Shown: piece by piece, positions 15,877-40,662 of the stretch | Layout: every line of letters begins with the position of its first letter | How positions within the stretch are numbered: position 1 is the first letter of the stretch | NCBI GenBank assembly: GCA_026395175.1 | Contig: JAPLZF010000012.1 | Span: forward strand, 1 to 42,156 | Direction of reading: 5' to 3' | Source of the DNA: Candidatus Staskawiczbacteria bacterium | GTDB taxonomy: Bacteria; Patescibacteriota; Minisyncoccia; Minisyncoccales; Staskawiczbacteraceae | Length of the DNA: 42,156 nt | Position numbers and translations under genes: made by a program | Notes under the pieces: model-generated | The model's input: the letters and a program-made list of their open reading frames with translations, nothing else | The model's database searches: none | Told to the model about the DNA's origin: nothing

Positions 15877-17502
15877 ATGCCAACAAAATATATTTTCGTC
15901 ACGGGGGGAGTTATGTCGGGCGTAGGCAAAGGAGTTGCAGCAGCTTCAATTGCCAAAATTCTCCAATCTCGAGGATTCAGTGTAACGGCTATTAAAATTG
16001 ACCCTTATGTCAACGTTGATGCCGGCACAATGAACCCAACCGAGCATGGAGAAGTTTTTGTTTTAGACGACGGAATGGAGTGCGACCAGGACATGGGAAA
16101 TTATGAAAGGTTTTTGGACACAAGCCTGTCTTCTGCAAATTATATGACAACAGGAAGCGTCTACCTTTCTGTAATCAACAAAGAACGCCACATGGAATAT
16201 GGTGGAAAATGCGTTGAGGTTGTTCCGCGAATTCCCATGGAAGTAATCGACAGGATTGATAAAGCAGTTGAAAAAGAAAATGCCGAAATTGTTGTTATTG
16301 AAATTGGCGGAACAGTTGGCGAATATGAAAATTTGCTTTTTTTAGAAGCAATAAAATTAATTAAATTAAAACATTCAAAAGATATTATTACGGTTTTGGT
16401 CAGTTACATACCAACTTTGGGCGCAGGTGGTAACGAATTAAAAACAAAACCAACCCAGCATGCAGTCAGGAATTTGAATGCGGTTGGAATTCAGCCGGAT
16501 ATTATTTTGGGCAGGGCAAATGTTCCGCTTGACGACAGGCGAAAGGAAAAAATTATGTTTACCTGCGGAGTAGAAAAAGAAGATGTAATTTCGGCTCCAA
16601 ATGTTGAAAGCATTTATGAGGTTCCGGTAAATTTTGAAAATGACAATATTTCAGACCGAATTTTAGAAAAGCTTTCTTTAAAAGCAAAAAATAAAGATTT
16701 AAAAGAATGGAGAGAATTTGTGCACAACATCCAAAACCCAGAGGGCGAAGTTAAAATTGGAATAATTGGAAAATATTTTGGCAGCGGAGATTTTATTCTA
16801 ACCGATTCATATATTTCTGTTATAGAATCTGTAAAACACGCAGCATATTTTGCCAAAAAAAAACCAATTATTGAATGGCTTGATTCTGATGTATATGAAA
16901 AAGATGCTTCAAAATTAAAAGAGCTGGACGAGTTAGACGGCATAATTGTTCCCGGCGGATTTGGAAACAGAGGAATAGATGGTAAAATTTTAGCCATTGG
17001 ATATTGCAGAGAAAATAAAATTCCATATTTTGGACTTTGCTATGGAATGCAATTAGCCACAATAGAATTTGCCAGAAATGTTGCAGGGCTAAAAGATGCC
17101 AACACAACCGAAATTAATAAAGACACAAAAAATCCTATTATAGACATAATGGAAGAACAAAAAACATTAATGAAAGAAAACAGATATGGAGGGTCAATGC
17201 GTCTTGGTGCTTATGATTGCAAATTAGTTGAGGGCACAAAAGCATTTTTGGCTTATGGAAAAAAAGATATTTCCGAACGCCACAGGCACAGATTTGAATT
17301 CAATAATAAATATCGCGACATTTTAACTGAAAAAGGATTGGTTATTTCGGGCATAAACCCGGATAGAGATTTGGTGGAAATAGTGGAGTTAAAAGACCAC
17401 CCTTTCTTTGTGGGCACGCAATTTCATCCTGAATTTAAATCAAGACCATTAACTCCTCATCCATTATTTCGTGAATTTGTGAAGGCGGCAATCCGGAAAT
17501 AA
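15877..17502 (+). CDS. pyrG: CTP synthase
   Basis: KYIFVTGGVMSGVGKG, KTKPTQH, GLCYGMQ, HRHRFE, QFHPEF. Confidence 0.98.
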   Translation: MPTKYIFVTGGVMSGVGKGVAAASIAKILQSRGFSVTAIKIDPYVNVDAGTMNPTEHGEVFVLDDGMECDQDMGNYERFLDTSLSSANYMTTGSVYLSVINKERHMEYGGKCVEVVPRIPMEVIDRIDKAVEKENAEIVVIEIGGTVGEYENLLFLEAIKLIKLKHSKDIITVLVSYIPTLGAGGNELKTKPTQHAVRNLNAVGIQPDIILGRANVPLDDRRKEKIMFTCGVEKEDVISAPNVESIYEVPVNFENDNISDRILEKLSLKAKNKDLKEWREFVHNIQNPEGEVKIGIIGKYFGSGDFILTDSYISVIESVKHAAYFAKKKPIIEWLDSDVYEKDASKLKELDELDGIIVPGGFGNRGIDGKILAIGYCRENKIPYFGLCYGMQLATIEFARNVAGLKDANTTEINKDTKNPIIDIMEEQKTLMKENRYGGSMRLGAYDCKLVEGTKAFLAYGKKDISERHRHRFEFNNKYRDILTEKGLVISGINPDRDLVEIVELKDHPFFVGTQFHPEFKSRPLTPHPLFREFVKAAIRK

Positions 17503-29315: not shown

Positions 29316-30407
29316 TTAAACGTTGGATGAAAGGCGTTTGAATACAATAATAAATAAAAATATTAAGACAAGCCCGACTAAAATCCACAAATACCATCTT
29401 TTCAAAAATCCCATAAAACCAGATGTTGCCGGGGCTTTAGAAACTGCGGCTACTGCTTGGACTTGGCTAAAATTTATAGAAACAGAATCGGTCTGTATTT
29501 TTCCAGAAACATTGCTCGTTGCGGTTGCCTGTTTTGTTGAAACTGCGGAAATTGTTTGTGTTTTTCCTTCAAAGGTTATTAGTTTTGTGCTTTGAGGCGC
29601 AACGGACCCAATATTGATTCCAGAAACTATGTCTCCCGAAACCAAAACTCCATTGACCTGCAAATTTCCCAAGGAAGAAATTTCAGTTGGAATATTTGCT
29701 GAGACATTAACATTGTCAATTTGAGCAGTTGAAGCGTTTGTTGCAGAAATCATAAAATAAATTTGGCTGTTTTGGCCGAGTTCTGCTGTTTTCTGCCATT
29801 GGGTGGAAGCTGAATCTTGTTTGGCAAAAAATGCAATTGACAACCCGCTTGGTATTATATTCGCGGCTGGAGTTGGAGTTGTGTTTTGCTGAGCCGGAGC
29901 CGGAGTTGTCTGGCAATAAGTATTGTAATCTGCAGAGCCGACAGCGCAGGTTGTGCCGTCGCATTTTAATGTGTTTGCGCATTTATTTTCCGAGCAAGAA
30001 TCCAAAGTGCAACTGTTTTTGTCGGCGCATTTTTTGTATAAACCGCTGGCGACTCCAAGCGAATCATACCAATAAATGCTGTTGCCTGAACATGCTGTTT
30101 TGTAATATGCCACATAATTGCTGTAATTTTGGACAGGCTGAATTGGCTGGACATAATTTACACATTGGCCATACTGGCAGGTTTGTCCGCCCTGGCAGGT
30201 GTAATATAAATCTTGCTGGTTTTGGCAGGAGTCATACCAGTAAATGCTGTTGCCCGAGCAAAGCTTGTAGGCGTGATAAGTGCAGGACCCAGAGGGTACC
30301 CCGTAATTGTAATAATATTGGGCCTGCGCTGTTCCAGCCAAAACAAAGGCTGAAGCAAAAAGCATTATTGCAAATACGCTTATAGCAAGTAAATTTGATG
30401 TTTTCAT
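29316..30407 (-). CDS. Secreted, C-terminally anchored Cys-rich surface protein with an internal repeat and a DUF11-like Ig domain
   Basis: Signal peptide (MKTSNLL...AQA), CSGNSIYWYDS twice, beta-rich segment, C-terminal TM helix followed by KR. Confidence 0.75.
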   Translation of the reverse strand: MKTSNLLAISVFAIMLFASAFVLAGTAQAQYYYNYGVPSGSCTYHAYKLCSGNSIYWYDSCQNQQDLYYTCQGGQTCQYGQCVNYVQPIQPVQNYSNYVAYYKTACSGNSIYWYDSLGVASGLYKKCADKNSCTLDSCSENKCANTLKCDGTTCAVGSADYNTYCQTTPAPAQQNTTPTPAANIIPSGLSIAFFAKQDSASTQWQKTAELGQNSQIYFMISATNASTAQIDNVNVSANIPTEISSLGNLQVNGVLVSGDIVSGINIGSVAPQSTKLITFEGKTQTISAVSTKQATATSNVSGKIQTDSVSINFSQVQAVAAVSKAPATSGFMGFLKRWYLWILVGLVLIFLFIIVFKRLSSNV

Positions 30408-30540
30408 AGTTTTTAGGGTAATATTATATTTTACCACTTCAAGAACAAAAGTCAATAGTTTGCGGTGATGCTTACAGGTTGAATAAATTGCAAATATTGC
30501 AAAAATGGAAAAAGTGATGTAGAATAAAATAACAAAAATT

Positions 30541-30613
30541 GCCCTCGTAGCTCAATTGGTAGAGCAGTTCCCTTTTAAGGAATTGGTTTCGAGTTCGAGT
30601 CTCGACGAGGGCA
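30541..30613 (+). tRNA. tRNA-Lys(TTT); integration target
   Basis: Acceptor GCCCTCG/CGAGGGC, D-arm GCTC/GAGC, anticodon arm GTTCC-CTTTTAA-GGAAT, T-loop TTCGAGT. Confidence 0.95.
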
Positions 30614-32086
30614 CAAATTAGAACAGCCGTTCGCCAAAGCCATTGCTCCGAACGGCTTTTTAAGTGTAAAAGTGAGGTTTTTACCGCTTAATTTGGAGTT
30701 CTGAAATAGAAAGTTGATAAACGCTCGTTTTTCCATTGGTTCAGAACTTTTGAATAGCGAATATGCCCGTTTAGCGAGGCTCATAATCATTGCAATAGTG
30801 ATATAAAATTCTTTGTCGGCTTTCTGGTGCTTTGCTATCTCGGTGTTTATGGCTGTCTGTTTTTCGTCGTATTCATTGATTTTTTTATTGTAGTCCTCTT
30901 TGGTTATCTCCTCGTCGGCTAATCTATCAAGCAAGTTGCTTTTTCTTTTTTCATATCTATCGTAATCAGCCCGCAGGACTTTCATTGAAGCCTCAAAAAA
31001 CTCACTCTTTGCGTCTTCACTCTGGGCTAAGAGCGTCATTAGGCGTGTTTTTTGCCCCTCTGTGAGGCTTATATTCCTCAATACTCTCTCTACTGGCTTA
31101 AAGAGGTCATTTTCGTTCACATAGAGCCTTTTGGCGTGTATTTTATGGCTATTGGTGCAACTATAATAATTGTATTTATTCTTTGTCCTTTCTGCCGTAA
31201 TCGTGCAACCACATTCGGCACATTTTACTAAACCCCTAAAAGCAAAAGGCTTGCAAGCGTATCTAAACGGCTTTTTATTGTAGCCATTAAAAACTTCTTG
31301 CACTCTGTTAAACAACTGTCTTGAAATTAAGGGCTGGTATTTATGCGGATATAACACGCCCTTGATTTTCATTTCGCCATAATAAAACGGGTCTCTTAAA
31401 ATAATATAAATTTGTCCTCTTGGTAGCGGTTTGGGAGTTTTTGTATTACTTCTTAATCCCAGCTTTTCCATTGTTTCTTGAATTTGTTTAGTTGAGGAAG
31501 TCCCTGTCGCATACATTTCAAACATTTTAACGATAAACTGGCTTCGCAGAGGGTCGGGGATTATGTTAGTCCTTTTTCCAGTTTCGTCGTGAACTCCCAC
31601 ATAACCAATTTTAGGTTTTGTAATCCATTCTTTGTTTTGGATTTTCTGCTCGTAGCTTCTTTTTACATCATCAGAAAGCCTGTTGAGGTATTGCTTAGCC
31701 AAAAATACTTTTGCCTCCCACATAAACATCTGGTTGCCAGTTGCATTTTTATTTACAAAAAATCCGTCTTGCACAAAATGAATTTCTAAATCCTCCTTTC
31801 TCCTCATTTCATCTAAATCAACAGCGTCCTTAAAATTCCTTGTTGCTCGGTCAACATTCTCGCAAAGTAAAACCCTAACATCTTTATGGCTTCTAATATA
31901 CGCAATAACTTCCTCAAATTTCTTTCTGATTTTATCTCCCGCACTTTCGTGAAATGAAAAAGTCTCAACTATTTCAAAGTCTTTTTTCTTTGCGTATTCC
32001 TGCAACCTCCTTATTTGAGCGGGGAGTGAGTGTCCTTGCTCCTCCTGCTCCTTTGTTGAAACTCTGGCGAGTATTACGGCTTTCAT
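30575..32086 (-). CDS. Large serine recombinase (integrase)
   Basis: ARVSTKEQ catalytic motif, VDRATRN, recombinase domain (DPFYYG, HKYQPLIS), zinc ribbon CAECG...YYSC, coiled coil; 3' end reads through antisense tRNA-Lys. Confidence 0.95.
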   Translation of the reverse strand: MKAVILARVSTKEQEEQGHSLPAQIRRLQEYAKKKDFEIVETFSFHESAGDKIRKKFEEVIAYIRSHKDVRVLLCENVDRATRNFKDAVDLDEMRRKEDLEIHFVQDGFFVNKNATGNQMFMWEAKVFLAKQYLNRLSDDVKRSYEQKIQNKEWITKPKIGYVGVHDETGKRTNIIPDPLRSQFIVKMFEMYATGTSSTKQIQETMEKLGLRSNTKTPKPLPRGQIYIILRDPFYYGEMKIKGVLYPHKYQPLISRQLFNRVQEVFNGYNKKPFRYACKPFAFRGLVKCAECGCTITAERTKNKYNYYSCTNSHKIHAKRLYVNENDLFKPVERVLRNISLTEGQKTRLMTLLAQSEDAKSEFFEASMKVLRADYDRYEKRKSNLLDRLADEEITKEDYNKKINEYDEKQTAINTEIAKHQKADKEFYITIAMIMSLAKRAYSLFKSSEPMEKRAFINFLFQNSKLSGKNLTFTLKKPFGAMALANGCSNLCPRRDSNSKPIP

Positions 32087-32087
32087 T

Positions 32088-33524
32088 TTATTTACCTAAA
32101 ATAATGCTTTCAACTTCTTGTTTAGCTTTTTCTATTTCGTTTTTTGCTTCTAATTTTAGTTTGGTAGCACTTTCTAATCTATCCCTAAATTCGTTTGCTA
32201 ATTTCTTTTGCGTATCAATGGGTGGGAGGGGGACAGGAATTGATAAATACTCCTCCATAATTAAATTTTTAATGCCCGTTGTTTGGTTTTGCAGATATTC
32301 CATATAATTTAATCCATACAGAGTTTTCAAAAAACAAAATAAGTATTCTGGTATGCACTCTTTTTTTACTCTGAAACATTGCAAAAAATTACTGAAAGTA
32401 AATCTGTCTTTTAAGTTCTCTATCAAGGCAACCCTGCCAACTGGCTGTATCGGACTGCCTCCTGATTTTTCTATTAAAATATCGCCATTTTTTAATTCAA
32501 CTTTTGCCAATTTATTATTTTCTATAAATCGCTCCGCAACAACAGAAAAATTTAAGTTGCCTTGATTATCAAAATTTGTATTTCTTAAAACTTTAATCAA
32601 GGAATAGCCCTCATTATTTTCTAATGTAGCGTCCTCCCCCCATTCTCCCGCAATACTTGTCTCTAATAATTCGGAGAGCGTCTTTGTTTTATATGCAGAC
32701 TTTTTAATGGCTTTTAGTATTGTTTGGGGAGTATCTAAATAACCTTTTGGGTCTAATCTTTTGCCCTCAACCTCTTTGGAATTTATGCAAAAACAATTTT
32801 TATTTTTTAAGTTTTCAATTTTTATATCTAACTCTTTTAAGATATAACTACCAACTGAATTTAGGATATTTTCTGCCTTTTGCTCTTTGTCTATTTTTTT
32901 GTCATAAGCAGACTGCATTAGTTTTACTATTTTATTTTGAGTTTCTAATGGGGGAACAGGTATCGGTAATTTTTTTATAACTTCGTTATTAACATATTTA
33001 ATCGTTGCTATCGTGGCAACCCTATCAATAAGCCTTTTGAAATAATATGTATTTAGCCATATAACGGCGTATTGCGGGTTTATTTCTTTGTTGAACCTTA
33101 TTAGTGTTATATTTTGGTTAATCGTGGCTAAATCGCTCGTATCATAAATTGTAGAAACTCCTATCGTGCCTGCCATACTTATCAAAACATCTCCTTTTTT
33201 TAGCAGTAATCCTTTTAGATTTTTTTCAAATTCCCTTTTTATTTTTTTTGCCGAGCCGTATCTAATAACATTCTCTTTCAAGTCTGTATTTCTAATAAAT
33301 AAAATCCCGTCAATTTCAGTAAAACATTTTAGGCTCGCTTTGGGAGTAGAGCCACTTTTAACTAATTCAGATAATTCTCCTATGGTCTTTGTCTTAAATT
33401 CTCCCTTTTTAATTTTACTTATAATTTCAGCAAATTCTGTTTTGTGATAATAGGGGTCTAATCTGTTATCAAGGTTTTTGCTCCAAACTACAAAGCACTT
33501 GTTATTTTTTTTAACAGCCTGCAT
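32088..33524 (-). CDS. Restriction-modification specificity (S) subunit with two TRDs
   Basis: SGSTP, GDVLISMAGTIG, LPIPVPPLETQNKI and IPVPLPPIDTQKKL conserved repeats; RLDP twice. Confidence 0.9.
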   Translation of the reverse strand: MQAVKKNNKCFVVWSKNLDNRLDPYYHKTEFAEIISKIKKGEFKTKTIGELSELVKSGSTPKASLKCFTEIDGILFIRNTDLKENVIRYGSAKKIKREFEKNLKGLLLKKGDVLISMAGTIGVSTIYDTSDLATINQNITLIRFNKEINPQYAVIWLNTYYFKRLIDRVATIATIKYVNNEVIKKLPIPVPPLETQNKIVKLMQSAYDKKIDKEQKAENILNSVGSYILKELDIKIENLKNKNCFCINSKEVEGKRLDPKGYLDTPQTILKAIKKSAYKTKTLSELLETSIAGEWGEDATLENNEGYSLIKVLRNTNFDNQGNLNFSVVAERFIENNKLAKVELKNGDILIEKSGGSPIQPVGRVALIENLKDRFTFSNFLQCFRVKKECIPEYLFCFLKTLYGLNYMEYLQNQTTGIKNLIMEEYLSIPVPLPPIDTQKKLANEFRDRLESATKLKLEAKNEIEKAKQEVESIILGK

Positions 33525-35295
33525 AGTTTTGTGGATTTTTTAAGAATTTTTTATACTCCTCATAAATTTCTCCGAAATCATTTCTCGGGTCGTCTTTTCC
33601 CGTTGCGTCATATCCTATATGCTCGGCAATTCCCATAAATATCGGGTAGTCTGTTAATTTTTCGTTTTCTCCTCGTCTCCTTAAAAATACCAAAGACGAT
33701 TTTACCCCCGCTCCAAAATGTGCGAAAGAAAAAGACGGGAGAGAGATAACTCCCATAATTTGGCAGTGCTCCATTATAAAATCTCGTATATTTTGCAGGG
33801 AGGAGTTGGTTAGTATCCCGTCTGGTAAAACAATGGCTATTCTGCCTGTTTTTGGCTTTACAAAGTTAATGCAACGCTCAATAAATAAAATTTCTGTTTT
33901 TTGATTTTGTTTATCCTCTCCCAGTTTATATTTATCTAAATAGTCCTTTTCAGTCCTTTTTATCATTGCCCCAAACGGCGGATTTGTAAGTATTAAATCA
34001 AAATGGTTTTTTTCAAATTTCGGGTGTAGTTTTTCTATTTCGTCAAAGTTTTCTAATGCGTCCGTGCTAATAACATTCGTATGCCCGTCGTCGTGGATTA
34101 TCATATTCATTTTACAAACTCTGGCTATCTGGTCGTTTATTTCAATGCCGTATAAATTATCTTTCGCAAAGCTGTGCCAATGGTCTCTGGCTTCTTGCTC
34201 GTCATAGTTTGTCTCTGCGTAATTCCTAACAGCGTCCAACGCATTAAGTAAAAATCCGCCACTCCCACAAGCAGGGTCTAAAACTAACTCGCCCCGCTCT
34301 GGGTTAGTCATTTTAACGCAAAATTGTATAATCGGTCTGGGAGTAAAAAATTGTCCCATTTTACCCTTGAAAAAGTCCGTCATAAATATCTCAAAAGCAA
34401 TTCCCTTAGTGTCTAAGTCAATTTTGTTTATTGCTAACGCCTGCAAGTGTTCTACCACATTATAAACAATTTTCGGCTCTAATTTTATGTCCTCCTTAAA
34501 AACTTCGGCGTCCTCTTTTTTGGCTTTTAGATAAATATCATTAACCCGTTTATAAACTTCGTCTGGTAGCTCGTGTGTGCCTATCTGAAATAAATAAGGG
34601 TCTCCTTTGGGAGTTATTTTTTCGTCTTTTAATTTGCAGAATAGCAATTTAGAAACTTCGTCAAAGGCAGTAGTGGGAGCGAGTTTGCCTCCCTGCCATA
34701 CGCTATCGTGTGCTTTCTCTAACGCCTTAATAAGCTCGTCTCTTGAAACTATTTTTAGCTCTTTGTCCGTTTCGCCTTTTATAAATCTGTATTTGGGAGT
34801 TTTGCCGTATTTTTTAGGAATATCCGAAATAACATTTTTAGCTCTTTCGCTCGGCTTAAATCCCGAAACATCAAAAGCGGTCTTTGTTGTCCCCGCAACA
34901 ACAGAGGCAAGTTTGGCTCGTAAATAATTTGCGTATCTAAATGCTTGGTCTATTGCTGTTTTATATTCGCTGTCTGTTATCCCGTCCTTTTTTGTTTCAA
35001 CTATAATATAAGGTTGTTTTAGCTCGTCGTCTTCATAAACAACAATATCCGCCCTATCTAAATCTGGCTTTGTCCCTATTTCAAAATCAATTCTTTCTTT
35101 TGGGTAATCGTAGTCAAGCACAAGCTCGCAAAAATACGAGGCTCTAACTTTTTCCTCTGGGTTCTTAAAACTGGTTATAAAATCCCGTGAGGCGTGGTAG
35201 GTTATTTTTGTTTTATCGTCGTTAAAAGAAACTATGCCCGCCTCAATGCCCCTGTTTATGCTTGCCTCAAAAATAGACTGGTTTTTATTTTCCAT
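33511..35295 (-). CDS. Fused endonuclease (HsdR_N-like PD-(D/E)XK) / N6-adenine methyltransferase, BcgI-like Type IIB/IIG RM subunit
   Basis: PEEKVR...RADIVVY...IIVETKK nuclease motif; GQFFTPR, LDPACGSGGFL, NPPF. Confidence 0.9.
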   Translation of the reverse strand: MENKNQSIFEASINRGIEAGIVSFNDDKTKITYHASRDFITSFKNPEEKVRASYFCELVLDYDYPKERIDFEIGTKPDLDRADIVVYEDDELKQPYIIVETKKDGITDSEYKTAIDQAFRYANYLRAKLASVVAGTTKTAFDVSGFKPSERAKNVISDIPKKYGKTPKYRFIKGETDKELKIVSRDELIKALEKAHDSVWQGGKLAPTTAFDEVSKLLFCKLKDEKITPKGDPYLFQIGTHELPDEVYKRVNDIYLKAKKEDAEVFKEDIKLEPKIVYNVVEHLQALAINKIDLDTKGIAFEIFMTDFFKGKMGQFFTPRPIIQFCVKMTNPERGELVLDPACGSGGFLLNALDAVRNYAETNYDEQEARDHWHSFAKDNLYGIEINDQIARVCKMNMIIHDDGHTNVISTDALENFDEIEKLHPKFEKNHFDLILTNPPFGAMIKRTEKDYLDKYKLGEDKQNQKTEILFIERCINFVKPKTGRIAIVLPDGILTNSSLQNIRDFIMEHCQIMGVISLPSFSFAHFGAGVKSSLVFLRRRGENEKLTDYPIFMGIAEHIGYDATGKDDPRNDFGEIYEEYKKFLKNPQNYAGC

Positions 35296-35297
35296 AA

Positions 35298-35480
35298 TTA
35301 TTTTTTTGTTTTTACCTTATTAAGAAAATTATTAAACTCCTCTTTGTCTATTCTAAACTCCTTGCCGATTTTATAGGCTTTTACTTTTTTCCGCTTAATG
35401 TAGCGGTAAATTGTCATTGTTGAAACCCTTAGCCTTTCCGCCAACTCCTCAACAAGATAAAATTCTTTTTCTTGTGCCAT
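35298..35480 (-). CDS. Excisionase-like HTH protein
   Basis: FYLVEELAERLRVSTMTIYRYIKRKKVKAYKIGKEFRI. Confidence 0.88.
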   Translation of the reverse strand: MAQEKEFYLVEELAERLRVSTMTIYRYIKRKKVKAYKIGKEFRIDKEEFNNFLNKVKTKK

Positions 35481-35483
35481 ATT

Positions 35484-35987
35484 TTATAATAATTGTTTTA
35501 GGTTTTTATAATATGTTTTTACTTCGTTTTCCCATTCTGGCGGATAAAACACTTTATTACTGCCCCGCAGTTCAATAGGTAATATCCTCATTGTATTATC
35601 TAAGCTGTGCGGTCTCCCGTTTTTCCCTGGCGTTGCCTCCCATTTTCTTTGTGCCTTTTCTATCAAAGGACAAGCTATTTTACTGGGAATAATCCAAAAA
35701 TCTGGGTCTTTTTCAAAGCCGTTAAGTTTTACAAAAGCATAATAAAAATCGTCCGCCTCTCCCTTTTCGTCTTTTGCAGATAATGGGAAGTCCGTAGCTT
35801 TTTCGTTCTGCGTTGCTTTAACAGATATTTTAACAAGTCTGCCACTCGGACTAAGAGCAAGTATATCGTATTTTTCAGCCCGCCCGAGCGTTATAGTTGC
35901 AGTAAAATTTATTGCCGATAATCTTGATGCTATGTAATACTCGCCAGCATTTCCGACATTTTGTTTTTGTGCTTTTTCTTGTGCCAT
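35484..35987 (-). CDS. Putative PD-(D/E)XK nuclease
   Basis: GNAGEYYIASRLS...YDILA...ISVKAT (E...D...xxK pattern). Confidence 0.7.
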   Translation of the reverse strand: MAQEKAQKQNVGNAGEYYIASRLSAINFTATITLGRAEKYDILALSPSGRLVKISVKATQNEKATDFPLSAKDEKGEADDFYYAFVKLNGFEKDPDFWIIPSKIACPLIEKAQRKWEATPGKNGRPHSLDNTMRILPIELRGSNKVFYPPEWENEVKTYYKNLKQLL

Positions 35988-35991
35988 ATTT

Positions 35992-36147
35992 TTAATTTTT
36001 AATTAACCTTTTATCGTCGCCATAAACAGCCTCATAAAGTCCCACGAAGTTGTTAGCTCGGCGGGTTGCTTCCTCGTCTAATAATTCTATGCCGTAGTTT
36101 TTGGCATATAGTTTCTTAAATTCCTCAATAGCTTCCTTCGGCAACAT
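35992..36147 (-). CDS. Small hypothetical protein (51 aa; below the ORF-track cutoff)
   Basis: MLPKEAIEEFKKLYAKNYGIELLDEEATRRANNFVGLYEAVYGDDKRLIKN*; stops 4 nt before the next ATG. Confidence 0.7.
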   Translation of the reverse strand: MLPKEAIEEFKKLYAKNYGIELLDEEATRRANNFVGLYEAVYGDDKRLIKN

Positions 36148-36221
36148 ATTTTTATTACTTTTTAATGCTGTTATGCCATTATACCTAATATGACAATAGT
36201 TGACAACGACTAATCTGTGAA

Positions 36222-37349
36222 TTACTTGCCTAAGTCATTATTTTTAATAGTTTCTACAATAAACTCCGCTAATTCTTTTTTGTTAAAGCCATACTTTACC
36301 TCTACATTTTTACCCTCAAAATCAACATTTCTTATTATCTCAATTTGTTTATCGGCTTCAAACCTCCCATATCCGCCAGAGCCAAAAGTCGTCCCAGTAT
36401 ATTTATGCCCGAAATTTTGGCTAAACGCTCGTTTCTGCTCCTCTGTTAGAGGCTGTTTTGATATTTGCCTAACTAATAAATGCCTAAAAGTGTGCGGGTG
36501 GTAATACTTAACTCCCGCATTTGTAAATCTTTTTTCAAAAATTTTCCTTAACGCTGTTTGTGCTTTCATAAATACTGGCTCAACTTTTCCTGTGTTGTAA
36601 TAACCTATATTATCTTTTCCGTTTTCAATTTTAGTAGCGGGAAATATAGGATTTTCTGGCGTAAATCCTCTTTGCTTTTGCAAGTAATCATACCATTGCA
36701 TAAAATAAGTTAGGGTCTCTTTGTAGAAAAAGGGGATTAAGACAGAGGTTATATTTGTTGAATTTTTTGTTTTTACTCCTAATTCAGTATGTTGGTATAA
36801 AACCTGTTTCTCTCGGTCAAAACTTTTCATTGGGAGCGTCATAATAGCCTCAATTCTCGCCCCTGTCATAACAGCCAAAGAAAGCAAAGCCTTGTCTCTC
36901 ATTTCAATCTCGTTCTCTCCCTTGATATTCTCAATGGCTTTTTTAACATCTTGCAAGTCGGGGCATTTTATATCTTTTGGCTGTATGGCTTCCTGTGTTT
37001 CCTTTTTTGTTAAATGCAGATAATCAACGGCATTGCTATCAATTCTCTTATAGCCCTTTTGCTTAGATAACCAATCAAAAAATAGCTTTATAAATCTTAA
37101 AATATGATAGCTGTAAGTTAGGCTAACATTCTCTTGGGAGCGGACTTTTTTCTTATTCCTTAGCCAGTTGGTAAATTCAACCGCTATTGTTTCGTTAAAA
37201 TTCTTAAAGTCTTTATAATCGGTAAAATCCTCCCATAAACAAATCGCATTTTCGTATCGGTTAACGCTTTTAGGTGAAAATTGTTTCTTAAATCTAAGCC
37301 ATTCATAAAATTTCCTTTTTATCTGCTCATTTTTATAAGTTGTTTTCAT
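36222..37349 (-). CDS. Tyrosine recombinase / phage-integrase family protein
   Basis: RDKALL...TGARIEA, KTK, HPHTFRH, NFGH...GYG. Confidence 0.9.
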   Translation of the reverse strand: MKTTYKNEQIKRKFYEWLRFKKQFSPKSVNRYENAICLWEDFTDYKDFKNFNETIAVEFTNWLRNKKKVRSQENVSLTYSYHILRFIKLFFDWLSKQKGYKRIDSNAVDYLHLTKKETQEAIQPKDIKCPDLQDVKKAIENIKGENEIEMRDKALLSLAVMTGARIEAIMTLPMKSFDREKQVLYQHTELGVKTKNSTNITSVLIPFFYKETLTYFMQWYDYLQKQRGFTPENPIFPATKIENGKDNIGYYNTGKVEPVFMKAQTALRKIFEKRFTNAGVKYYHPHTFRHLLVRQISKQPLTEEQKRAFSQNFGHKYTGTTFGSGGYGRFEADKQIEIIRNVDFEGKNVEVKYGFNKKELAEFIVETIKNNDLGK

Positions 37350-37412
37350 ATTTTTTTGTTTTATACCTTAATGGTTTGAATAGGACATTTAAGAGTAATA
37401 ATAAATAACTAC

Positions 37413-37811
37413 TTAATCCCGTTGGCATACCCTTAAATACTTAAATACCTTTCTCCCGCAAACCTCACAAATTCCAGCTTTTCTTAGTTGCTTGTGATTA
37501 TCTTTTCCTATTGTTTTGCCCGTTTCTATTATTTGCTCGCTTCCTGCTTTTGCCTTAACGGCTTTGTGGCATTTCAAGCATAAAAACTCATTTTCCCTTA
37601 TTGGAATTTTCCCTTTCTCCCGTTGCTTATTTATAAAATCTATTAAATCCTCTCCCCGAATAAAATATGGCTTTATACCCTCAATGGTTGCCAATCCCTC
37701 CTCACTAATCCAGCGACGGCAAGTTTTCCCGCTTACGCCATACAAATCCGTTATATCCTTTATTGAATAACTCCTCCTTGCCGTGATTAAGTTGATATTA
37801 TATTTAGGCAT
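37413..37811 (-). CDS. MerR/excisionase-type HTH protein with C-terminal zinc ribbon
   Basis: YSIKDITDLYGVSGKTCRRWISEEGL; CLKC...CEVCG. Confidence 0.8.
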   Translation of the reverse strand: MPKYNINLITARRSYSIKDITDLYGVSGKTCRRWISEEGLATIEGIKPYFIRGEDLIDFINKQREKGKIPIRENEFLCLKCHKAVKAKAGSEQIIETGKTIGKDNHKQLRKAGICEVCGRKVFKYLRVCQRD

Positions 37812-37815
37812 AGGA

Positions 37816-37998
37816 TTATTTTTCAGTTCCTTTTTTCTGCTCTTTAATTCCTTTCTTTTTATAAAGGTTCGGATTAACCCTCATATCAACCTTTAAGAGC
37901 AACTGAAAAAATCCCAGTAAATTTTGCTCGGCTTCATAGTCGTCAGCTTCTATGTTTTCATTCTCCCTGTTTAGCTCGTTGGGGCTTTCTGCTTTCAT
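37816..37998 (-). CDS. Small hypothetical protein
   Basis: 60 aa, EAEQNLLGFFQLLLKVDMRVNP; GGAGGA SD upstream; coupled to the next gene. Confidence 0.65.
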   Translation of the reverse strand: MKAESPNELNRENENIEADDYEAEQNLLGFFQLLLKVDMRVNPNLYKKKGIKEQKKGTEK

Positions 37999-38105
37999 AC
38001 CCCTATCCTCCCACGAAAAATAAACTTAAATAAATCTTAACAATAGCAACAAAAAAACCCACTTTGTTAGGGCTTTTTGGGAGTTAGCCTACCTGTTAAG
38101 TTCTT

Positions 38106-39326
38106 TTAAGTTGTTTTAAGTTTTTTTGCTTTTCTTTTCTGCAAAGATAGAAGTTGCTTTTGAGTTATGATTTTTGTTTTAATTTCTGGGTTAATAAGTC
38201 TAATATCTCGTCCAACAATTACTTCTGTAAGAGCGTATCTCCCTCCCATATAAATCGGGCAATTTTCATTGTAATTAAAATAATCCCGCATACTAACCGA
38301 AATGTCTTTTACTCCCGTTCTGTTTTCTGGTCGTATATTTTTGTCCGCTATCTCTTTAATAAAAATTTGCCAACTTTCAGAATTGTCTTTTATCTCTCTT
38401 GTCTCATTGTAGCCGTCATTAACAGCAACAGAGTGTCTGCCGTTTTTTAACTCTATGATAGTTATTTTTTCTACTTTTACTTTTCCCTCGCTTATAGCCT
38501 GTGGTTTTACTTGTTTCTTTTGCCTTTCCATTTCGTCCATTTTCAAGATAATGTGATTTTGAAATCTTATCATTGTTGGCTTAACTTTTTCAATTTTATA
38601 AAAGATTGGTTGTCTGTCAGATTTTCCCTCCTCTACCATTAGCCATTCTCCATATAAAATATCGTGGCTCATCATTAACTCCTGCATTGCCTTTGGAGAG
38701 TGATTTTCTACGCCCTCTTTAACTAATACTTTACGCCTCTCCCTGCCGTTTTTAATAATTTTATAGTATCTAATAATATCGTTCATTTTTCCCCATAGCT
38801 CGGTTTCATACCTTTTCCGTCCCTCTTGCAGTAAATCAAAATACAATTTAATCTCGTCCGTTATAAGAAAATGTTTTATATTTGGGCTGTTTTCCCAAAA
38901 GATAATATATTTTAAGGCAAATTCTTTGTGCTCGGGTATTATGTAAAGAAAGCGGATAACTTCGGATAGCTCGTCGTGTAATGCTTCGGTTAAAGCCCTG
39001 CTTCCCATTATTTTTCCACTCAAATAGCCGTCGTAATCATTCAAAGCCTCTTTTATCCCAGCATTATCAACATTGTTTTTAGTGAGATAATCAACGAGCT
39101 CTTTATGAAACCCCTTAATCTGCTCCACGCAAATTGTATCTAACATTTTTAATTTATCCTCAACAATTTTCAACTCTCCCAATAAATTATTAGCAATTTG
39201 GTCAAATTCTGGCACACTTTCAACATAATCAAGGTAATCGCATAACCCATAAAAAAAGTCCTTTGTATTCGCAAGGTCAATAAAAGAATAATATAGTCTA
39301 TCCAAAATTTCTGTTTCTCGGCTCAT
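38106..39326 (-). CDS. Hypothetical protein (island cargo)
   Basis: 406-aa ORF with no recognised motif. Confidence 0.8.
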   Translation of the reverse strand: MSRETEILDRLYYSFIDLANTKDFFYGLCDYLDYVESVPEFDQIANNLLGELKIVEDKLKMLDTICVEQIKGFHKELVDYLTKNNVDNAGIKEALNDYDGYLSGKIMGSRALTEALHDELSEVIRFLYIIPEHKEFALKYIIFWENSPNIKHFLITDEIKLYFDLLQEGRKRYETELWGKMNDIIRYYKIIKNGRERRKVLVKEGVENHSPKAMQELMMSHDILYGEWLMVEEGKSDRQPIFYKIEKVKPTMIRFQNHIILKMDEMERQKKQVKPQAISEGKVKVEKITIIELKNGRHSVAVNDGYNETREIKDNSESWQIFIKEIADKNIRPENRTGVKDISVSMRDYFNYNENCPIYMGGRYALTEVIVGRDIRLINPEIKTKIITQKQLLSLQKRKAKKLKTT

Positions 39327-39438
39327 TGCTCTTTAAGTATTTAGTATTAGACTATTTTACTTAAAAAGTTAAGCATTGTAAAGTATGCCGACTTGTATAT
39401 TCCTAAAATTTCGTGTTAGAGTATTATTATAAGCCTTA

Positions 39439-39537
39439 TTAGGCAAGCGAGAAATTAAAAGTTGAGACAAGAGCGTCTAACTCAACCCTCATAGCTCGCC
39501 AGTCAAAGGTTCTAAGTTCGTCTAATAGAGGGCACAA
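39439..39537 (-). other. Detached C-terminal coding fragment of the serine recombinase at attR
   Basis: Joining at GAGGGCACAA gives in-frame ...LCP-LLDELRTFDWRAMRVELDALVSTFNFSLA*, stop at 39439-39441. Confidence 0.75.
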
Positions 39538-39538
39538 T

Positions 39539-39573
39539 TAAAAAATTGCTAGGTCAGACCTAGCAATTTTTTA
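39539..39573. terminator. Perfect palindrome / bidirectional terminator (dnaJ and the pre-integration tRNA-Lys)
   Basis: TAAAAAATTGCTAGGTC-A-GACCTAGCAATTTTTTA, 17-bp arms. Confidence 0.8.
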
Positions 39574-40662
39574 TAATCCTTCTTTTTTCAACTGGTCAAG
39601 CAGTTCTTTTTGCTTGCGGGATAATTTTTTTGGGGTTTTAACTTTAAATTCAACATACATGTTTCCCCTGCCGTACCCGCCAAAGTGCGGAATTCCCTTT
39701 CCAGAAATTCTTAAAACTTTTCCAGTTTCTGTTCCTTGCGGAACTTGCAGTAAAATATTTGTGCCTTCCAAGGATTTTATTTCTATTTCATCTCCCAAAG
39801 CTGCCTGTGAAAAATTAATTTCTGTTTGCGAAAATAAATCGTCTCCCCTTCTCTCAAATGCTGGATGTTTTTTAACAAATATTCTTGCAAATAAATTTCC
39901 AGCTTTTGCTCCCTTTTTTCCAGCCTCGCCTTTTCCATCAACCCTTATTACTTGGTTTGTATCAATTCCAGCTGGAATATGAATTTCAATTGTTTCCTGG
40001 CCTTTTGTTCTGCCCTCGCCTTTGCATACATTGCATGGCTTTTCGGGAATTGTGCCCTCACCCTTGCACTCGGGGCAAGTTGCCAAAGTTGTATAACTGC
40101 CAAAAACCGTTTTCTGAACCTGCTGAACTTGTCCTGTGCCTCGGCAAGAAAAACATTCTTTTATTTTTGTGTTGGGCTCGGCCCCGGTTCCTTGGCACCT
40201 GTGGCAAGTGGCCTGTTTTGATAAAGTTACCTTTTCAACATGTTCTTTCAACACTTTTTCTAAAGTCAGTTCAATGTCAACCTGAATGTCTTTCCCTTTT
40301 TTCGGGTCTTTTTTGGCAGTTCGCCTTCCTCCGCCAAAAAATTGCTCAAAAACATCGCCCAAGTCACCCATGTCAAATTCAACCTCTTCTTGCTGGCGGG
40401 TGTTTCCCCATGACCAATTAAAACCTTGGCCTTCAAACGGATTCCCTCCTGGCTGGCCACCGTCAAAAACTCTTCCATACTGGTCGTATTGAGCTCGTTT
40501 TTGCGCATCAGAAAGCACCTGGTACGCTTCGTTTATTTCTTTAAACTTTTTTTCATCACCGCCTTTGTCTGGGTGATATTGGTGCGCCAGTTTATGAAAT
40601 GCTTTTTTTATTTCATCTTGCGACGCGTTTTTAGTCACGCCGAGAATTTCGTAATAGTCCAT
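39571..40662 (-). CDS. dnaJ: Chaperone DnaJ
   Basis: [11 protein letters not shown], four CxxCxGxG repeats. Confidence 0.98.

What the first reader, a model, noticed from the sequence alone, without database searches (positions are those of the whole stretch)
30575..39537. Serine integrase with its att site inside its own gene: integration/excision would swap the C-terminal tail
Seen: the 10-bp core GAGGGCACAA occurs at the tRNA-Lys 3' end (30607) and at 39528, and the first copy lies within the integrase ORF. Integrated, the protein ends ...NLCP-RRDSNSKPIP*, encoded by antisense tRNA. Re-joining the ends in silico gives ...NLCP-LLDELRTFDWRAMRVELDALVSTFNFSLA*, a 29-codon stop-free in-frame tail in AT-rich DNA 9 kb away. 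Known precedents involve tyrosine systems: SSV1-type split integrases, Myxococcus phage Mx8 integrase, and mycobacteriophage integration-dependent immunity, where attP in the repressor gene removes an ssrA-like tag. Inference: a large serine recombinase may use its own recombination product as a state switch for directionality, activity or stability. The excised-form tail ends in hydrophobic FNFSLA, loosely ssrA-degron-like.
Basis: partly seen in the sequence, partly recalled or inferred. Interest (0 to 1): 0.88.

Follow-up and report, generated by a model that had tools for sequence, protein, structure and literature searches.

The report
Serine integrase gene crossing its attP
A small mobile element in a tiny-genome (Patescibacteria) bacterium inserts into a tRNA gene using a serine integrase whose own gene spans the recombination site, so insertion swaps a conserved 29-residue protein tail for a few residues read from the tRNA's opposite strand.

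Summary
A large serine recombinase (LSR) ORF (30575-32086, minus strand) overlaps the 3' end of tRNA-Lys. The 10-bp core GAGGGCACAA bounds an 8.9-kb element at 30607 and 39528.

- **Mobility:** public contigs hold the empty site joined exactly at the core, in 2 of 4 runs laid.
- **Family pattern:** 59 of 94 rows (93 homologous loci plus the window) show the same antisense-tRNA overlap, mostly tRNA-Asn, also Gln, His, Arg, Lys, Ile and Glu.
- **Tail:** in 12 of 13 elements with a recognisable distal tail, re-joining the ends is in frame. It restores a tail with a conserved F-D/N-W-R-A-M-R-x-E-L-D-A stretch.
- **Selection:** tail dN/dS is 0.03-0.27 with near-saturated synonymous change, so the tail is protein-coding rather than only att DNA.
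- **Excised-form ORFs:** about 7 of 112 full-length homologue clusters carry such tails directly.

Not shown: any functional difference between the two isoforms. The AlphaFold model of the tail has low confidence. The degron idea is not conserved. A conserved excisionase-like gene could supply ordinary directionality control.

The closest precedent is the tyrosine integrase IntP of phage Mx8. My searches found no serine-integrase case, and no report of serine integrases targeting tRNA genes.

The parts
30541..30614 (+). tRNA-Lys(UUU) gene, the integration target (attB-derived part of attL). It is single-copy in the assembled genome.
   Evidence: ARAGORN. The only full-length match in G000.
30607..30616 (.). 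Left copy of the 10-bp core GAGGGCACAA. It covers the last 6 nt of the acceptor stem, the discriminator and 3 nt downstream, and lies inside the integrase ORF.
   Evidence: The empty-site joint has 10 letters that fit either side.
30575..32086 (-). Large serine recombinase gene, integrated-state isoform of 503 aa. Residues 1-493 are element-encoded up to ...NLCP.
   Evidence: Pfam Resolvase 2.7e-19, Recombinase 8.2e-11, Zn_ribbon_recom 2.6e-09. Translation. 954 homologues.
30575..30606 (-). The 10 codons RRDSNSKPIP plus the stop, read from the antisense of the tRNA T-arm and anticodon arm. This is the integrated-state tail. 'DSN' is the antisense T-loop.
   Evidence: The same 'DSN' tails occur in 42 of 112 full-length homologue clusters.
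30625..30663 (+). Hairpin followed by TTTTT, directly downstream of the tRNA and antisense inside the integrase ORF. Probably an element-supplied replacement terminator for the tRNA.
   Evidence: MFE -17.7 kcal/mol, z = -4.0, 0 of 200 shuffles as good. A hairpin plus T-run at the same place in 20 of 53 distinct related loci. The consensus terminator scan missed it because of its loop limit.
32088..35295 (-). Cargo: type I restriction-modification specificity subunit (32088-33524) and an N6-methylase with an HSDR_N_2 N-terminus (33511-35295).
   Evidence: Pfam Methylase_S 7.5e-32, N6_Mtase 1.9e-44, HSDR_N_2 2.9e-15.
35298..35480 (-). 60-aa HTH_17 excisionase-like protein. It is the most widely shared accessory gene of these elements and a candidate recombination directionality factor.
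   Evidence: Pfam HTH_17 8.3e-13. PHROG 66 'excisionase and transcriptional regulator' 9.3e-10. tblastn hits in 38 of 97 related loci.
35484..39326 (-). Element backbone, in window coordinate order: 167-aa unknown, 51-aa unknown, tyrosine recombinase (36222-37349), 132-aa HTH_17 protein (37413-37811), 60-aa unknown, 406-aa unknown (38106-39326).
   Evidence: Parts of the backbone are shared with other elements; the tyrosine recombinase is found in only 5 of 97 loci.
39439..39528 (-). Displaced native C-terminal tail of the integrase: 29 codons LLDELRTFDWRAMRVELDALVSTFNFSLA plus the stop. It is in frame with the ORF across the core and is closed by a TAA just upstream in the integrated state.
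   Evidence: Conserved at the protein level in other elements.
39528..39537 (.). Right copy of the 10-bp core (attR).
   Evidence: Joint.
39539..39573 (.). Perfect 17-bp-arm hairpin between the core and the dnaJ stop codon. It is the native bidirectional terminator that follows the tRNA in the empty site.
   Evidence: Inverted repeat I11, 100% complementary. dnaJ at 39571-40662.

Best explanation
Window 30617-39537 is an 8.9-kb integrative element of a Patescibacteria genome. It is inserted at the 3' end of the single-copy tRNA-Lys(UUU) gene by its own large serine recombinase.

Shown:
- The recombination core lies inside the recombinase ORF, about 30 codons before the native stop. In the excised circle the gene would encode 522 aa (493 + 29), ending in a conserved tail.
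- Integration leaves residues 1-493 at attL. These are completed by 10 codons read from the antisense tRNA, and the tail-coding segment is left 8.9 kb away at attR.
- The arrangement is a family trait of tRNA-targeting serine integrases in Patescibacteria. The crossover sits at the acceptor end and discriminator of the tRNA, and the join is in frame.
- The tail is under purifying selection as protein.
- In this subfamily the last ~100 nt of the gene also carry, on the other strand, a hairpin plus T-run that can terminate the tRNA transcript after integration.

Inferred:
- The tailed isoform is the form made by the free element, so it is the one that carries out integration.
- The prophage makes a tail-less isoform that differs in activity, stability or directionality, by analogy with Mx8 IntP/IntX.
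- Excision would be done by the tail-less form, probably with the conserved HTH_17 excisionase-like protein.
For: - Domains and overlap.
- Core copies.
- Exact boundaries and mobility: the joint 30606->39528, with 10 shared letters, appears in contigs of runs X4 (depth 25.7) and X5 (depth 6). X3 holds the occupied form (a 7688-nt contig over 32036-39700, depth 21.8). In X4 identical flanks reach depth 91-124 and the element is almost absent.
- Family pattern: 10 of 10 genome loci with 49% identity or more, and 59 of 94 rows overall, have an antisense tRNA at the ORF end (Asn 42, Gln 5, His 4, Arg 4, Lys 2, Ile 1, Glu 1).
- Distal tails: found by tblastn in 11 further loci (10 distinct contigs, since L046 = L037), plus L042.
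- Frame: 12 of 13 elements share a 5-10 nt core that starts within 3 nt of the first base of the antisense tRNA where ARAGORN called one. All 12 join in frame.
- Selection: tail dN/dS is 0.03-0.27 with pS 0.56-0.78, against 0.14-0.44 for the preceding 60 codons.
- Tailed ORFs seen directly: P0023, P0031, P0062, P0072, P0074, P0095, P0112, i.e. 7 of 112 full-length clusters by regex.
- Antisense terminator.
- Which recombinase: the tyrosine recombinase is in only 5 of 97 loci, so the serine enzyme is the integrase.
Against: - No isoform-specific function was tested.
- The AlphaFold2 model of a natural tailed homologue (P0072) gives residues 490-524 pLDDT below 50.
- Tail length and sequence vary widely across the family, from about 7 to 36 residues after the crossover.
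- The two closest relatives in genomes, L035 (96% identity, at tRNA-Arg) and L036 (90%), have no recognisable distal tail.
- No circular junction was seen in contigs, and none of 53 whole-contig loci has overlapping ends.
- Empty sites could be ancestral strains rather than excision products.
- A conventional excisionase-like gene is present.
- Dyad symmetry of the reconstructed attP is weak: the best centre scores 94/264.
- In 19 of 19 congeners tRNA-Lys lies next to dnaJ in the opposite orientation. The local history of the site is therefore not fully understood.
Confidence: 0.8

Rival explanations
1. The overlap is a by-product of genome compaction and has no regulatory meaning. attP happens to sit in the 3' end of the gene, the tail is a dispensable appendix, and both isoforms work alike. 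Directionality is set in the usual way by a separate factor.
For: - Tails vary greatly in length and sequence across the family, and some are only 7-15 residues.
- The tail is modelled with pLDDT below 50.
- Integrated-state genes are intact without it in 59 or more loci.
- An excisionase-like gene is conserved.
- L035 and L036 lack the tail segment altogether.
Against: - Within the window's subfamily the tail is as constrained as the enzyme body: dN/dS 0.03-0.27 against 0.14-0.44, with synonymous sites near saturation.
- Conservation runs about 80 nt past the crossover. From recalled knowledge, a serine-integrase attP half-site spans about 25 bp, so this reaches well beyond it.
- All 12 resolved joins are in frame.
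Confidence: 0.3
2. Tail conservation reflects only DNA-level constraint: the sequence is the integrase's binding site in attP and is never used as protein.
For: - Both attP arms are conserved at the DNA level.
- The right arm shares G[GA]A[CT] and GAAC motifs with the antisense tRNA T-arm: 9 and 7 of 12 in attP, against 10 and 11 of 12 in attB.
Against: - Synonymous differences reach 56-78% of synonymous sites, while nonsynonymous differences are 8-30%.
- The frame is kept in 12 of 12 resolved elements.
- Gene callers found full-length ORFs with such tails in public data.
Confidence: 0.07
3. The tyrosine recombinase in the element (36222-37349) is the real integrase at the tRNA, as in classical tRNA islands, and the serine recombinase overlap is incidental.
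For: - Tyrosine integrases are the enzymes known to target tRNA genes (PMC4383910, passages read).
- One is present in this element.
Against: - It lies in the middle of the element and occurs in only 5 of 97 related loci.
- The serine recombinase abuts an antisense tRNA in 59 of 94 rows.
- The shared core is only 5-10 nt, with no long displaced tRNA fragment.
Confidence: 0.03

Closest known systems
Myxococcus phage Mx8 IntP/IntX. The Tojo et al. 1996 title is cited in PMC4383910 and was seen. Details on IntX activity are recalled, not read.
   Same: attP lies inside the 3' end of the integrase gene. Integration leaves the catalytic body intact but replaces the C-terminal residues, so prophage and free phage encode different isoforms. 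The target is a tRNA gene.
   Different: Mx8 Int is a tyrosine recombinase with a long attP. This enzyme is a large serine recombinase with a 5-10 nt shared core, and the new tail is read from the antisense tRNA. The pattern is also a trait of a large family across many tRNA targets, not one phage.
SSV1-type 'suicidal' integrases of archaeal viruses and plasmids (PMC7253208, abstract seen in the listing).
   Same: The recombination site lies within the integrase's own ORF.
   Different: In SSV-type systems integration splits the gene into two inactive parts. Here all recognised domains (residues 1-493) stay together and only the last 29 residues are exchanged. The catalytic family also differs (tyrosine).
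Integration-dependent immunity of mycobacteriophages (recalled; only mentioned in the abstract of PMC4929511 in the listing).
   Same: Integration changes the C-terminus of a phage protein because attP is inside a gene, so the DNA state sets the protein isoform.
   Different: There attP is in the repressor gene and the lost part is an ssrA-like degradation tag. Here it is the integrase gene, and no conserved degron-like ending was seen (own tally).
Canonical large serine integrases (phiC31, Bxb1, A118). General properties are recalled; the abstracts of PMC1470463 and PMC12286644 were seen.
   Same: Resolvase, Recombinase and zinc-ribbon domains with a long coiled-coil insertion. Very short identity between the sites.
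   Different: In those systems attP lies outside the gene and the targets are protein-coding genes or intergenic sites. [quoted passage not shown]

Membership tests
Large serine recombinase (serine integrase) | N-terminal resolvase catalytic domain with the nucleophilic serine | tested here: met
   PF00239 at residues 3-152, E 2.7e-19. R8, V9 and S10 are invariant in 22- and 62-sequence alignments.
Large serine recombinase (serine integrase) | Recombinase domain followed by a zinc-ribbon domain with conserved cysteines | tested here: met
   PF07508 at 182-265 and PF13408 at 283-330. C289, C292 and C310 are invariant and C294 nearly so.
Large serine recombinase (serine integrase) | Coiled-coil insertion in the zinc-ribbon domain | tested here: met
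   The AlphaFold2 model of homologue P0072 has long helices at 343-390 and 396-419 after the ribbon strands, with block pLDDT about 78-92. This is a model only.
Large serine recombinase (serine integrase) | Recombines short attP and attB sites with a 2-bp staggered crossover | not testable with these tools
   Only the shared cores of 5-10 nt and weak dyad symmetry could be seen.
Integrases whose ORF extends across attP with a C-terminal swap (Mx8 IntP type) | Crossover inside the integrase ORF near its 3' end | tested here: met
   The core at 30607-30616 is inside ORF 30575-32086. The empty-site joint lies at the core.
Integrases whose ORF extends across attP with a C-terminal swap (Mx8 IntP type) | The excised form restores an in-frame, conserved C-terminus | tested here: met
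   12 of 12 resolved elements are in frame. dN/dS is 0.03-0.27.
Integrases whose ORF extends across attP with a C-terminal swap (Mx8 IntP type) | Tyrosine recombinase chemistry | tested here: not met
   The overlapping gene is a serine recombinase. This is therefore an analogue, not a member.
Integrases whose ORF extends across attP with a C-terminal swap (Mx8 IntP type) | The isoforms differ in activity | not testable with these tools
   Needs biochemical or genetic assays.
SSV1-type split integrase | Integration separates the gene into two non-functional parts | tested here: not met
   All Pfam domains (residues 3-330) and the conserved body to residue 493 stay in one ORF.
Integration-dependent immunity | attP within the repressor gene, removing an ssrA-like tag | tested here: not met
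   attP is in the integrase gene. Tail endings are not conserved as a degron-like motif (own tally).

The most novel reading that the evidence does not exclude
The integrase reads its own DNA state. The free element makes a tailed isoform tuned for attP x attB integration. The act of integration then rewrites the gene so that the prophage makes a tail-less isoform with altered directionality, activity or stability. That would be a one-gene, self-resetting toggle in a large serine recombinase. It would be combined with triple use of the same ~100 nt: protein tail, attP arms that mimic the tRNA T-arm, and an antisense terminator for the target tRNA.
Probability: 0.3. Interest if true: 0.88.

Novelty: new variant of a known kind. 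Interest (0 to 1): 0.74.

Why it matters
- **Genome engineering:** large serine integrases are leading tools for inserting large DNA, and their one-way behaviour normally needs a separate directionality factor. A natural family in which the recombination event itself edits the enzyme's C-terminus offers a testable design for state-dependent control.
- **Target range:** serine integrases were stated not to be known to target tRNA genes (PMC4383910). This family uses at least seven tRNA species and seems to read the conserved T-arm and acceptor end. A 96%-identical enzyme sits at a different tRNA (L035, tRNA-Arg). That matters for target-range prediction and for landing-pad design.
- **Patescibacteria biology:** the family defines a common, small, restriction-modification-carrying mobile element in organisms where mobile elements are poorly described.
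- **Annotation:** the C-termini of these genes in databases are state-dependent artefacts of where the element sits, and the true native tail is usually unannotated at the far end of the element.

Tried and rejected
- **Empty site in congeners.** 19 of 19 same-genus loci have tRNA-Lys beside dnaJ but in the opposite orientation, and the left flank is not syntenic. This gave no empty site and left an unexplained local inversion. The empty site came from contigs instead.
- **Circle evidence.** No 'goes back' joint was seen in the four runs laid. These are contigs, which drop rare variants, so this says nothing either way. None of 53 whole-contig loci has terminal overlaps of 15 nt or more.
- **Heuristic searches for the distal core.** Searches by longest common substring picked spurious matches. 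I replaced them with a tblastn search using the window's tail and an anchored frame test. L078 stayed unresolved.
- **Mis-framed query.** One search used a mis-framed tail peptide. It was corrected.
- **L035 and L036.** No tail was found.
- **L049.** The sequence at the integrase end is not a tRNA by ARAGORN or Rfam.
- **Terminator scan.** The consensus scan found nothing at 30400-30900 because of its loop limit. Folding was used instead.
- **Structure.** AlphaFold2 of P0072 gave the tail pLDDT below 50, so no docking site can be claimed.
- **Tail peptide search.** The 32-aa tail was searched against 1.84 billion representatives and gave 2 hits. P0122 is a repeat protein and looks spurious. 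P0123 is a 68-aa fragment that ends in an 87%-identical tail. Neither is informative about excised forms.
- **Dyad symmetry.** For the reconstructed attP it is weak, 0.36 at best.
- **Contig L073.** Its integrase ORF ends in an attP-like tail, but the ORFs listed downstream of it lie on the opposite strand, an arrangement unlike the window element's. It is not interpretable.
- **Degron idea.** Rejected as not conserved.
- **Tyrosine recombinase as the integrase.** Rejected.
- **Literature.** Eight searches and passages of five papers gave no report of a serine integrase with attP in its own ORF or of tRNA-targeting serine integrases. Supplementary tables, for example the att-site table of PMC10083194, are closed and might hold such cases.
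Full report
**1. What is in the window.**

ARAGORN finds tRNA-Lys(ttt) at 30541-30614 on the plus strand. A 503-aa ORF runs on the minus strand from 32086 to 30575. It matches Resolvase (E 2.7e-19), Recombinase (8.2e-11) and the recombinase zinc ribbon (2.6e-09). It is therefore a large serine recombinase. Its last 40 nt are the antisense of the tRNA, and it ends ...NLCPRRDSNSKPIP*.

GAGGGCACAA occurs at 30607 (acceptor 3' strand, discriminator and three more bases) and at 39528. It also occurs at 17230(+) and 40050(-), both inside genes. That is four copies against 0.04 expected. Read on the minus strand from 39537, the distal copy continues in the ORF's frame as LCP-LLDELRTFDWRAMRVELDALVSTFNFSLA*.

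Between the two copies, in window coordinate order, lie these genes:
- a type I restriction-modification S subunit and a methylase;
- a 60-aa HTH_17 excisionase-like gene;
- a 167-aa and a 51-aa unknown;
- a tyrosine recombinase (36222-37349);
- a 132-aa HTH_17 protein;
- a 60-aa unknown and a 406-aa unknown.

To the right of the distal core sit a perfect 17-bp-arm hairpin (39539-39573) and the convergent dnaJ gene, followed by an Hsp70 (dnaK-type) gene. The genome is 744 kb in 19 contigs. The records of the nearest relatives are titled as Patescibacteria MAGs.

**2. The element's ends are real and the element is, or recently was, mobile.**

Contigs of four public runs were laid on 30400-39700.
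- A joint from 30606 to 39528 that skips 8921 bases, with 10 letters fitting either side, appears in X4 (depth 25.7) and X5 (depth 6). Its short sides of 18-20 letters are what a junction-specific 31-mer unitig would give. That reading is my inference.
- In X4 the flanks are identical to the window at depth 91-124, and the element is nearly absent.
- X3 holds only the occupied form: a 7688-nt contig over 32036-39700, depth 21.8.
- X5 holds both forms.

The empty site is therefore tRNA-Lys, then the hairpin, then dnaJ, joined exactly at the core. No circle junction was seen, but contigs cannot show rare forms. The empty form could be ancestral or the result of excision. The runs may include the window's own source, so they are not fully independent.

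**3. It is a family trait.**

The protein has 954 homologues at E <= 0.001, of which the best 120 are listed. Their C-termini fall into classes. Of the 112 that are 450 aa or longer:
- 59 stop within a few residues of the conserved ...SNLL-R/P position;
- 42 continue with 'DSN'-type tails, which are the antisense of the tRNA T-loop;
- 7 carry longer tails with a D/E-hydrophobic-R-T motif, often followed by W. These are P0023, P0031, P0062, P0072, P0074, P0095 and P0112;
- 4 are other.

This classification is by regular expression and is approximate.

Loci were fetched from genomes, metagenomes and viral contigs.
- 10 of 10 genome loci with 49% identity or more have an antisense tRNA at the ORF end.
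- Over all 94 rows the count is 59: Asn 42, Gln 5, His 4, Arg 4, Lys 2, Ile 1, Glu 1.
- Of the other 35 rows, 8 have an ORF that runs off the contig end or stops prematurely, and 10 more have a contig that ends within about 115 nt after the ORF. Four have attP-like tails (L073, L092, L101, L118).
- Some rows are the same contig filed twice (L037 = L046, L044 = L086).
- L035, with a 96%-identical enzyme, sits at tRNA-Arg(tcg) rather than tRNA-Lys.

**4. The displaced tail is conserved, in frame and protein-coding.**

A tblastn search with the window's tail finds it upstream of the integrase in L037, L049, L038, L039, L052, L118, L111, L078, L094, L080 and L121. L042 was found by motif.

In 12 of these 13 elements (counting the window), a 5-10 nt core is shared between the distal site and the integrase end. 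In the tRNA-Asn cases the core is GCTCC. Where ARAGORN called a tRNA, the core starts within 3 nt of the first base of the antisense tRNA. In all 12 the join keeps the frame. L078 was not resolved.

The tails of the window's subfamily read (P)-x-x-x-x-L-x-x-F-D/N-W-R-A-M-R-x-E-L-D-A-hydrophobic-x-S/A-T/N-F/Y....

Pairwise Nei-Gojobori estimates were made over the first 27 codons in five elements.
- The tail gives dN/dS 0.03-0.27, with 56-78% of synonymous sites changed.
- The 60 codons before the crossover give 0.14-0.44.

The constraint is therefore on the protein, not only on the DNA. It also extends about 80 nt past the crossover. That is beyond the roughly 25-bp half-site of serine-integrase attP sites, a figure I recall rather than tested.

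Against this:
- Tails in other subfamilies are short and different.
- L035 and L036 have no tail segment.
- The stop-free frame alone would occur by chance about one time in ten at this base composition (my estimate).

**5. Other layers in the same DNA.**

*A terminator on the other strand.* On the tRNA's strand, 30625-30663 forms a strong hairpin followed by TTTTT (-17.7 kcal/mol, z -4.0). A hairpin plus T-run lies at the same place in 20 of 53 distinct loci, with different stem sequences. It lies antisense to the conserved K-x-P-F... codons. I infer that the element brings a replacement terminator for the tRNA. That would also limit antisense transcription into the integrase gene.

*Conserved att arms.* Both attP arms are conserved at the DNA level, while the host flank of attB is not. 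The attP right arm shares G[GA]A[CT] and GAAC motifs with the antisense T-arm: 9 and 7 of 12 in attP, against 10 and 11 of 12 in attB. This fits an enzyme that reads the conserved T-arm and would explain the many tRNA targets. Dyad symmetry is weak.

**6. Which recombinase, and how it probably works.**

The tyrosine recombinase is in only 5 of 97 related loci. The HTH_17 60-aa gene is in 38. The serine recombinase is the gene that always abuts the tRNA. I conclude that it is the integrase.

Shown:
- attP lies within the ORF;
- integration exchanges a conserved 29-residue tail for 10 tRNA-antisense-coded residues;
- the tail is selected as protein.

Inferred:
- The free element makes the 522-aa form, which carries out integration.
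- The prophage makes the 503-aa form, which must carry out any excision, probably with the excisionase-like protein.
- The two forms differ in activity, stability or directionality.

The AlphaFold2 model of the tailed homologue P0072 (mean pLDDT 80.8) shows the expected domains and coiled coil, plus a small C-terminal helix and hairpin subdomain (426-490). The tail itself (490-524) is below pLDDT 50, so it gives no hint of a docking site.

**7. Comparison with what is known.**

The Islander paper says that only tyrosine-family integrases are known to target tRNA genes. It also says that some integrases (Mx8, SSV) extend across attP (PMC4383910; passages read).

The large survey of serine recombinases (PMC10083194; passages read) has no occurrence of 'tRNA' in its main text.

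Eight literature searches and passages of three further papers gave no report of a serine integrase whose ORF spans attP.

The closest analogue is Mx8 IntP/IntX, a tyrosine enzyme. SSV-type splitting and integration-dependent immunity share the principle but differ in what is cut. I therefore rate this a new variant of a known kind. The principle of attP inside a gene of the element is known. Its occurrence in a serine integrase, across a whole tRNA-targeting family, with a selected tail and an antisense terminator, appears new.

**8. Open points.**

- In 19 of 19 congeners tRNA-Lys lies beside dnaJ in the opposite orientation. Contigs with that arrangement are also in the samples: a joint 30541/39619 on opposite strands, at depth 41-52 in X5 and X6. 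The window's lineage has an inversion of the tRNA that I could not explain.
- The two extra copies of the 10-mer are unexplained. One of them, inside dnaJ, shares 12 nt with the attR side.

Noticed in passing
window 17230-17239 (+) and 40050-40059 (-): Two further exact copies of the 10-bp core lie inside genes, one of them in dnaJ. That makes four copies in the window against 0.04 expected. The dnaJ copy shares 12 nt (core plus TT) with the attR side and is inverted relative to it. It may be chance through E-G-T codons, or a secondary site.
   Followed up: partly
window 30541-30614 versus L004-L022: In 19 of 19 same-genus loci, tRNA-Lys(ttt) lies next to the dnaJ 3' end and is co-oriented with dnaJ. 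In the window, and in its empty-site form, the tRNA is inverted and convergent with dnaJ. The left flank (a 379-aa unknown and an 833-aa Mur-ligase fusion) is not syntenic with the relatives.
   Followed up: partly
L004 about 1150-1180: A relative carries a second copy of the antisense tRNA-Lys 3' end (about 19 nt), roughly 140 nt beyond the intact tRNA. It could be a scar or a short insertion at the same att position.
   Followed up: no
L035 11473-11545: A 96%-identical integrase sits at tRNA-Arg(tcg) instead of tRNA-Lys. The two tRNAs share the antisense T-arm stretch GAGACTCGAACTC. This suggests easy target switching among tRNAs.
   Followed up: partly
loci (for example L053, L057, L060, L061, L077, L079, L080, L084, L098, L110, L121, L125): Many metagenome contigs end within about 30-120 nt after the integrase stop, that is at the tRNA or att site. 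L037 begins exactly at the distal att site. This fits assembly breaks caused by mixed occupied and empty populations.
   Followed up: no
L118 9641-9686 and 69-149: The integrase of this contig ends in a short attP-like tail (..NDLRTYLLAS*) rather than a tRNA. A second, different tail segment lies about 9.6 kb upstream. It may be tandem or nested elements of the family.
   Followed up: no
L049 11470-11524: The integrase end of this element reads into sequence that neither ARAGORN nor Rfam recognises as a tRNA, although a typical distal tail is present 11.3 kb upstream. It may be a non-tRNA or degraded target.
   Followed up: partly
window 38106-39326 (-): A 406-aa protein sits next to the distal att site and has no Pfam or PHROG match. 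Its C-terminal part is shared with several related elements (L035, L036, L038, L039, L049, L052). It is a candidate replication or maintenance protein of the element.
   Followed up: partly
window 30575-30577: The stop codon of the integrated-state integrase is the antisense of the tRNA anticodon loop and overlaps the UUU anticodon. The length of the integrated tail therefore depends on which tRNA is targeted; tRNA-Asn targets mostly give a stop right after the crossover.
   Followed up: partly
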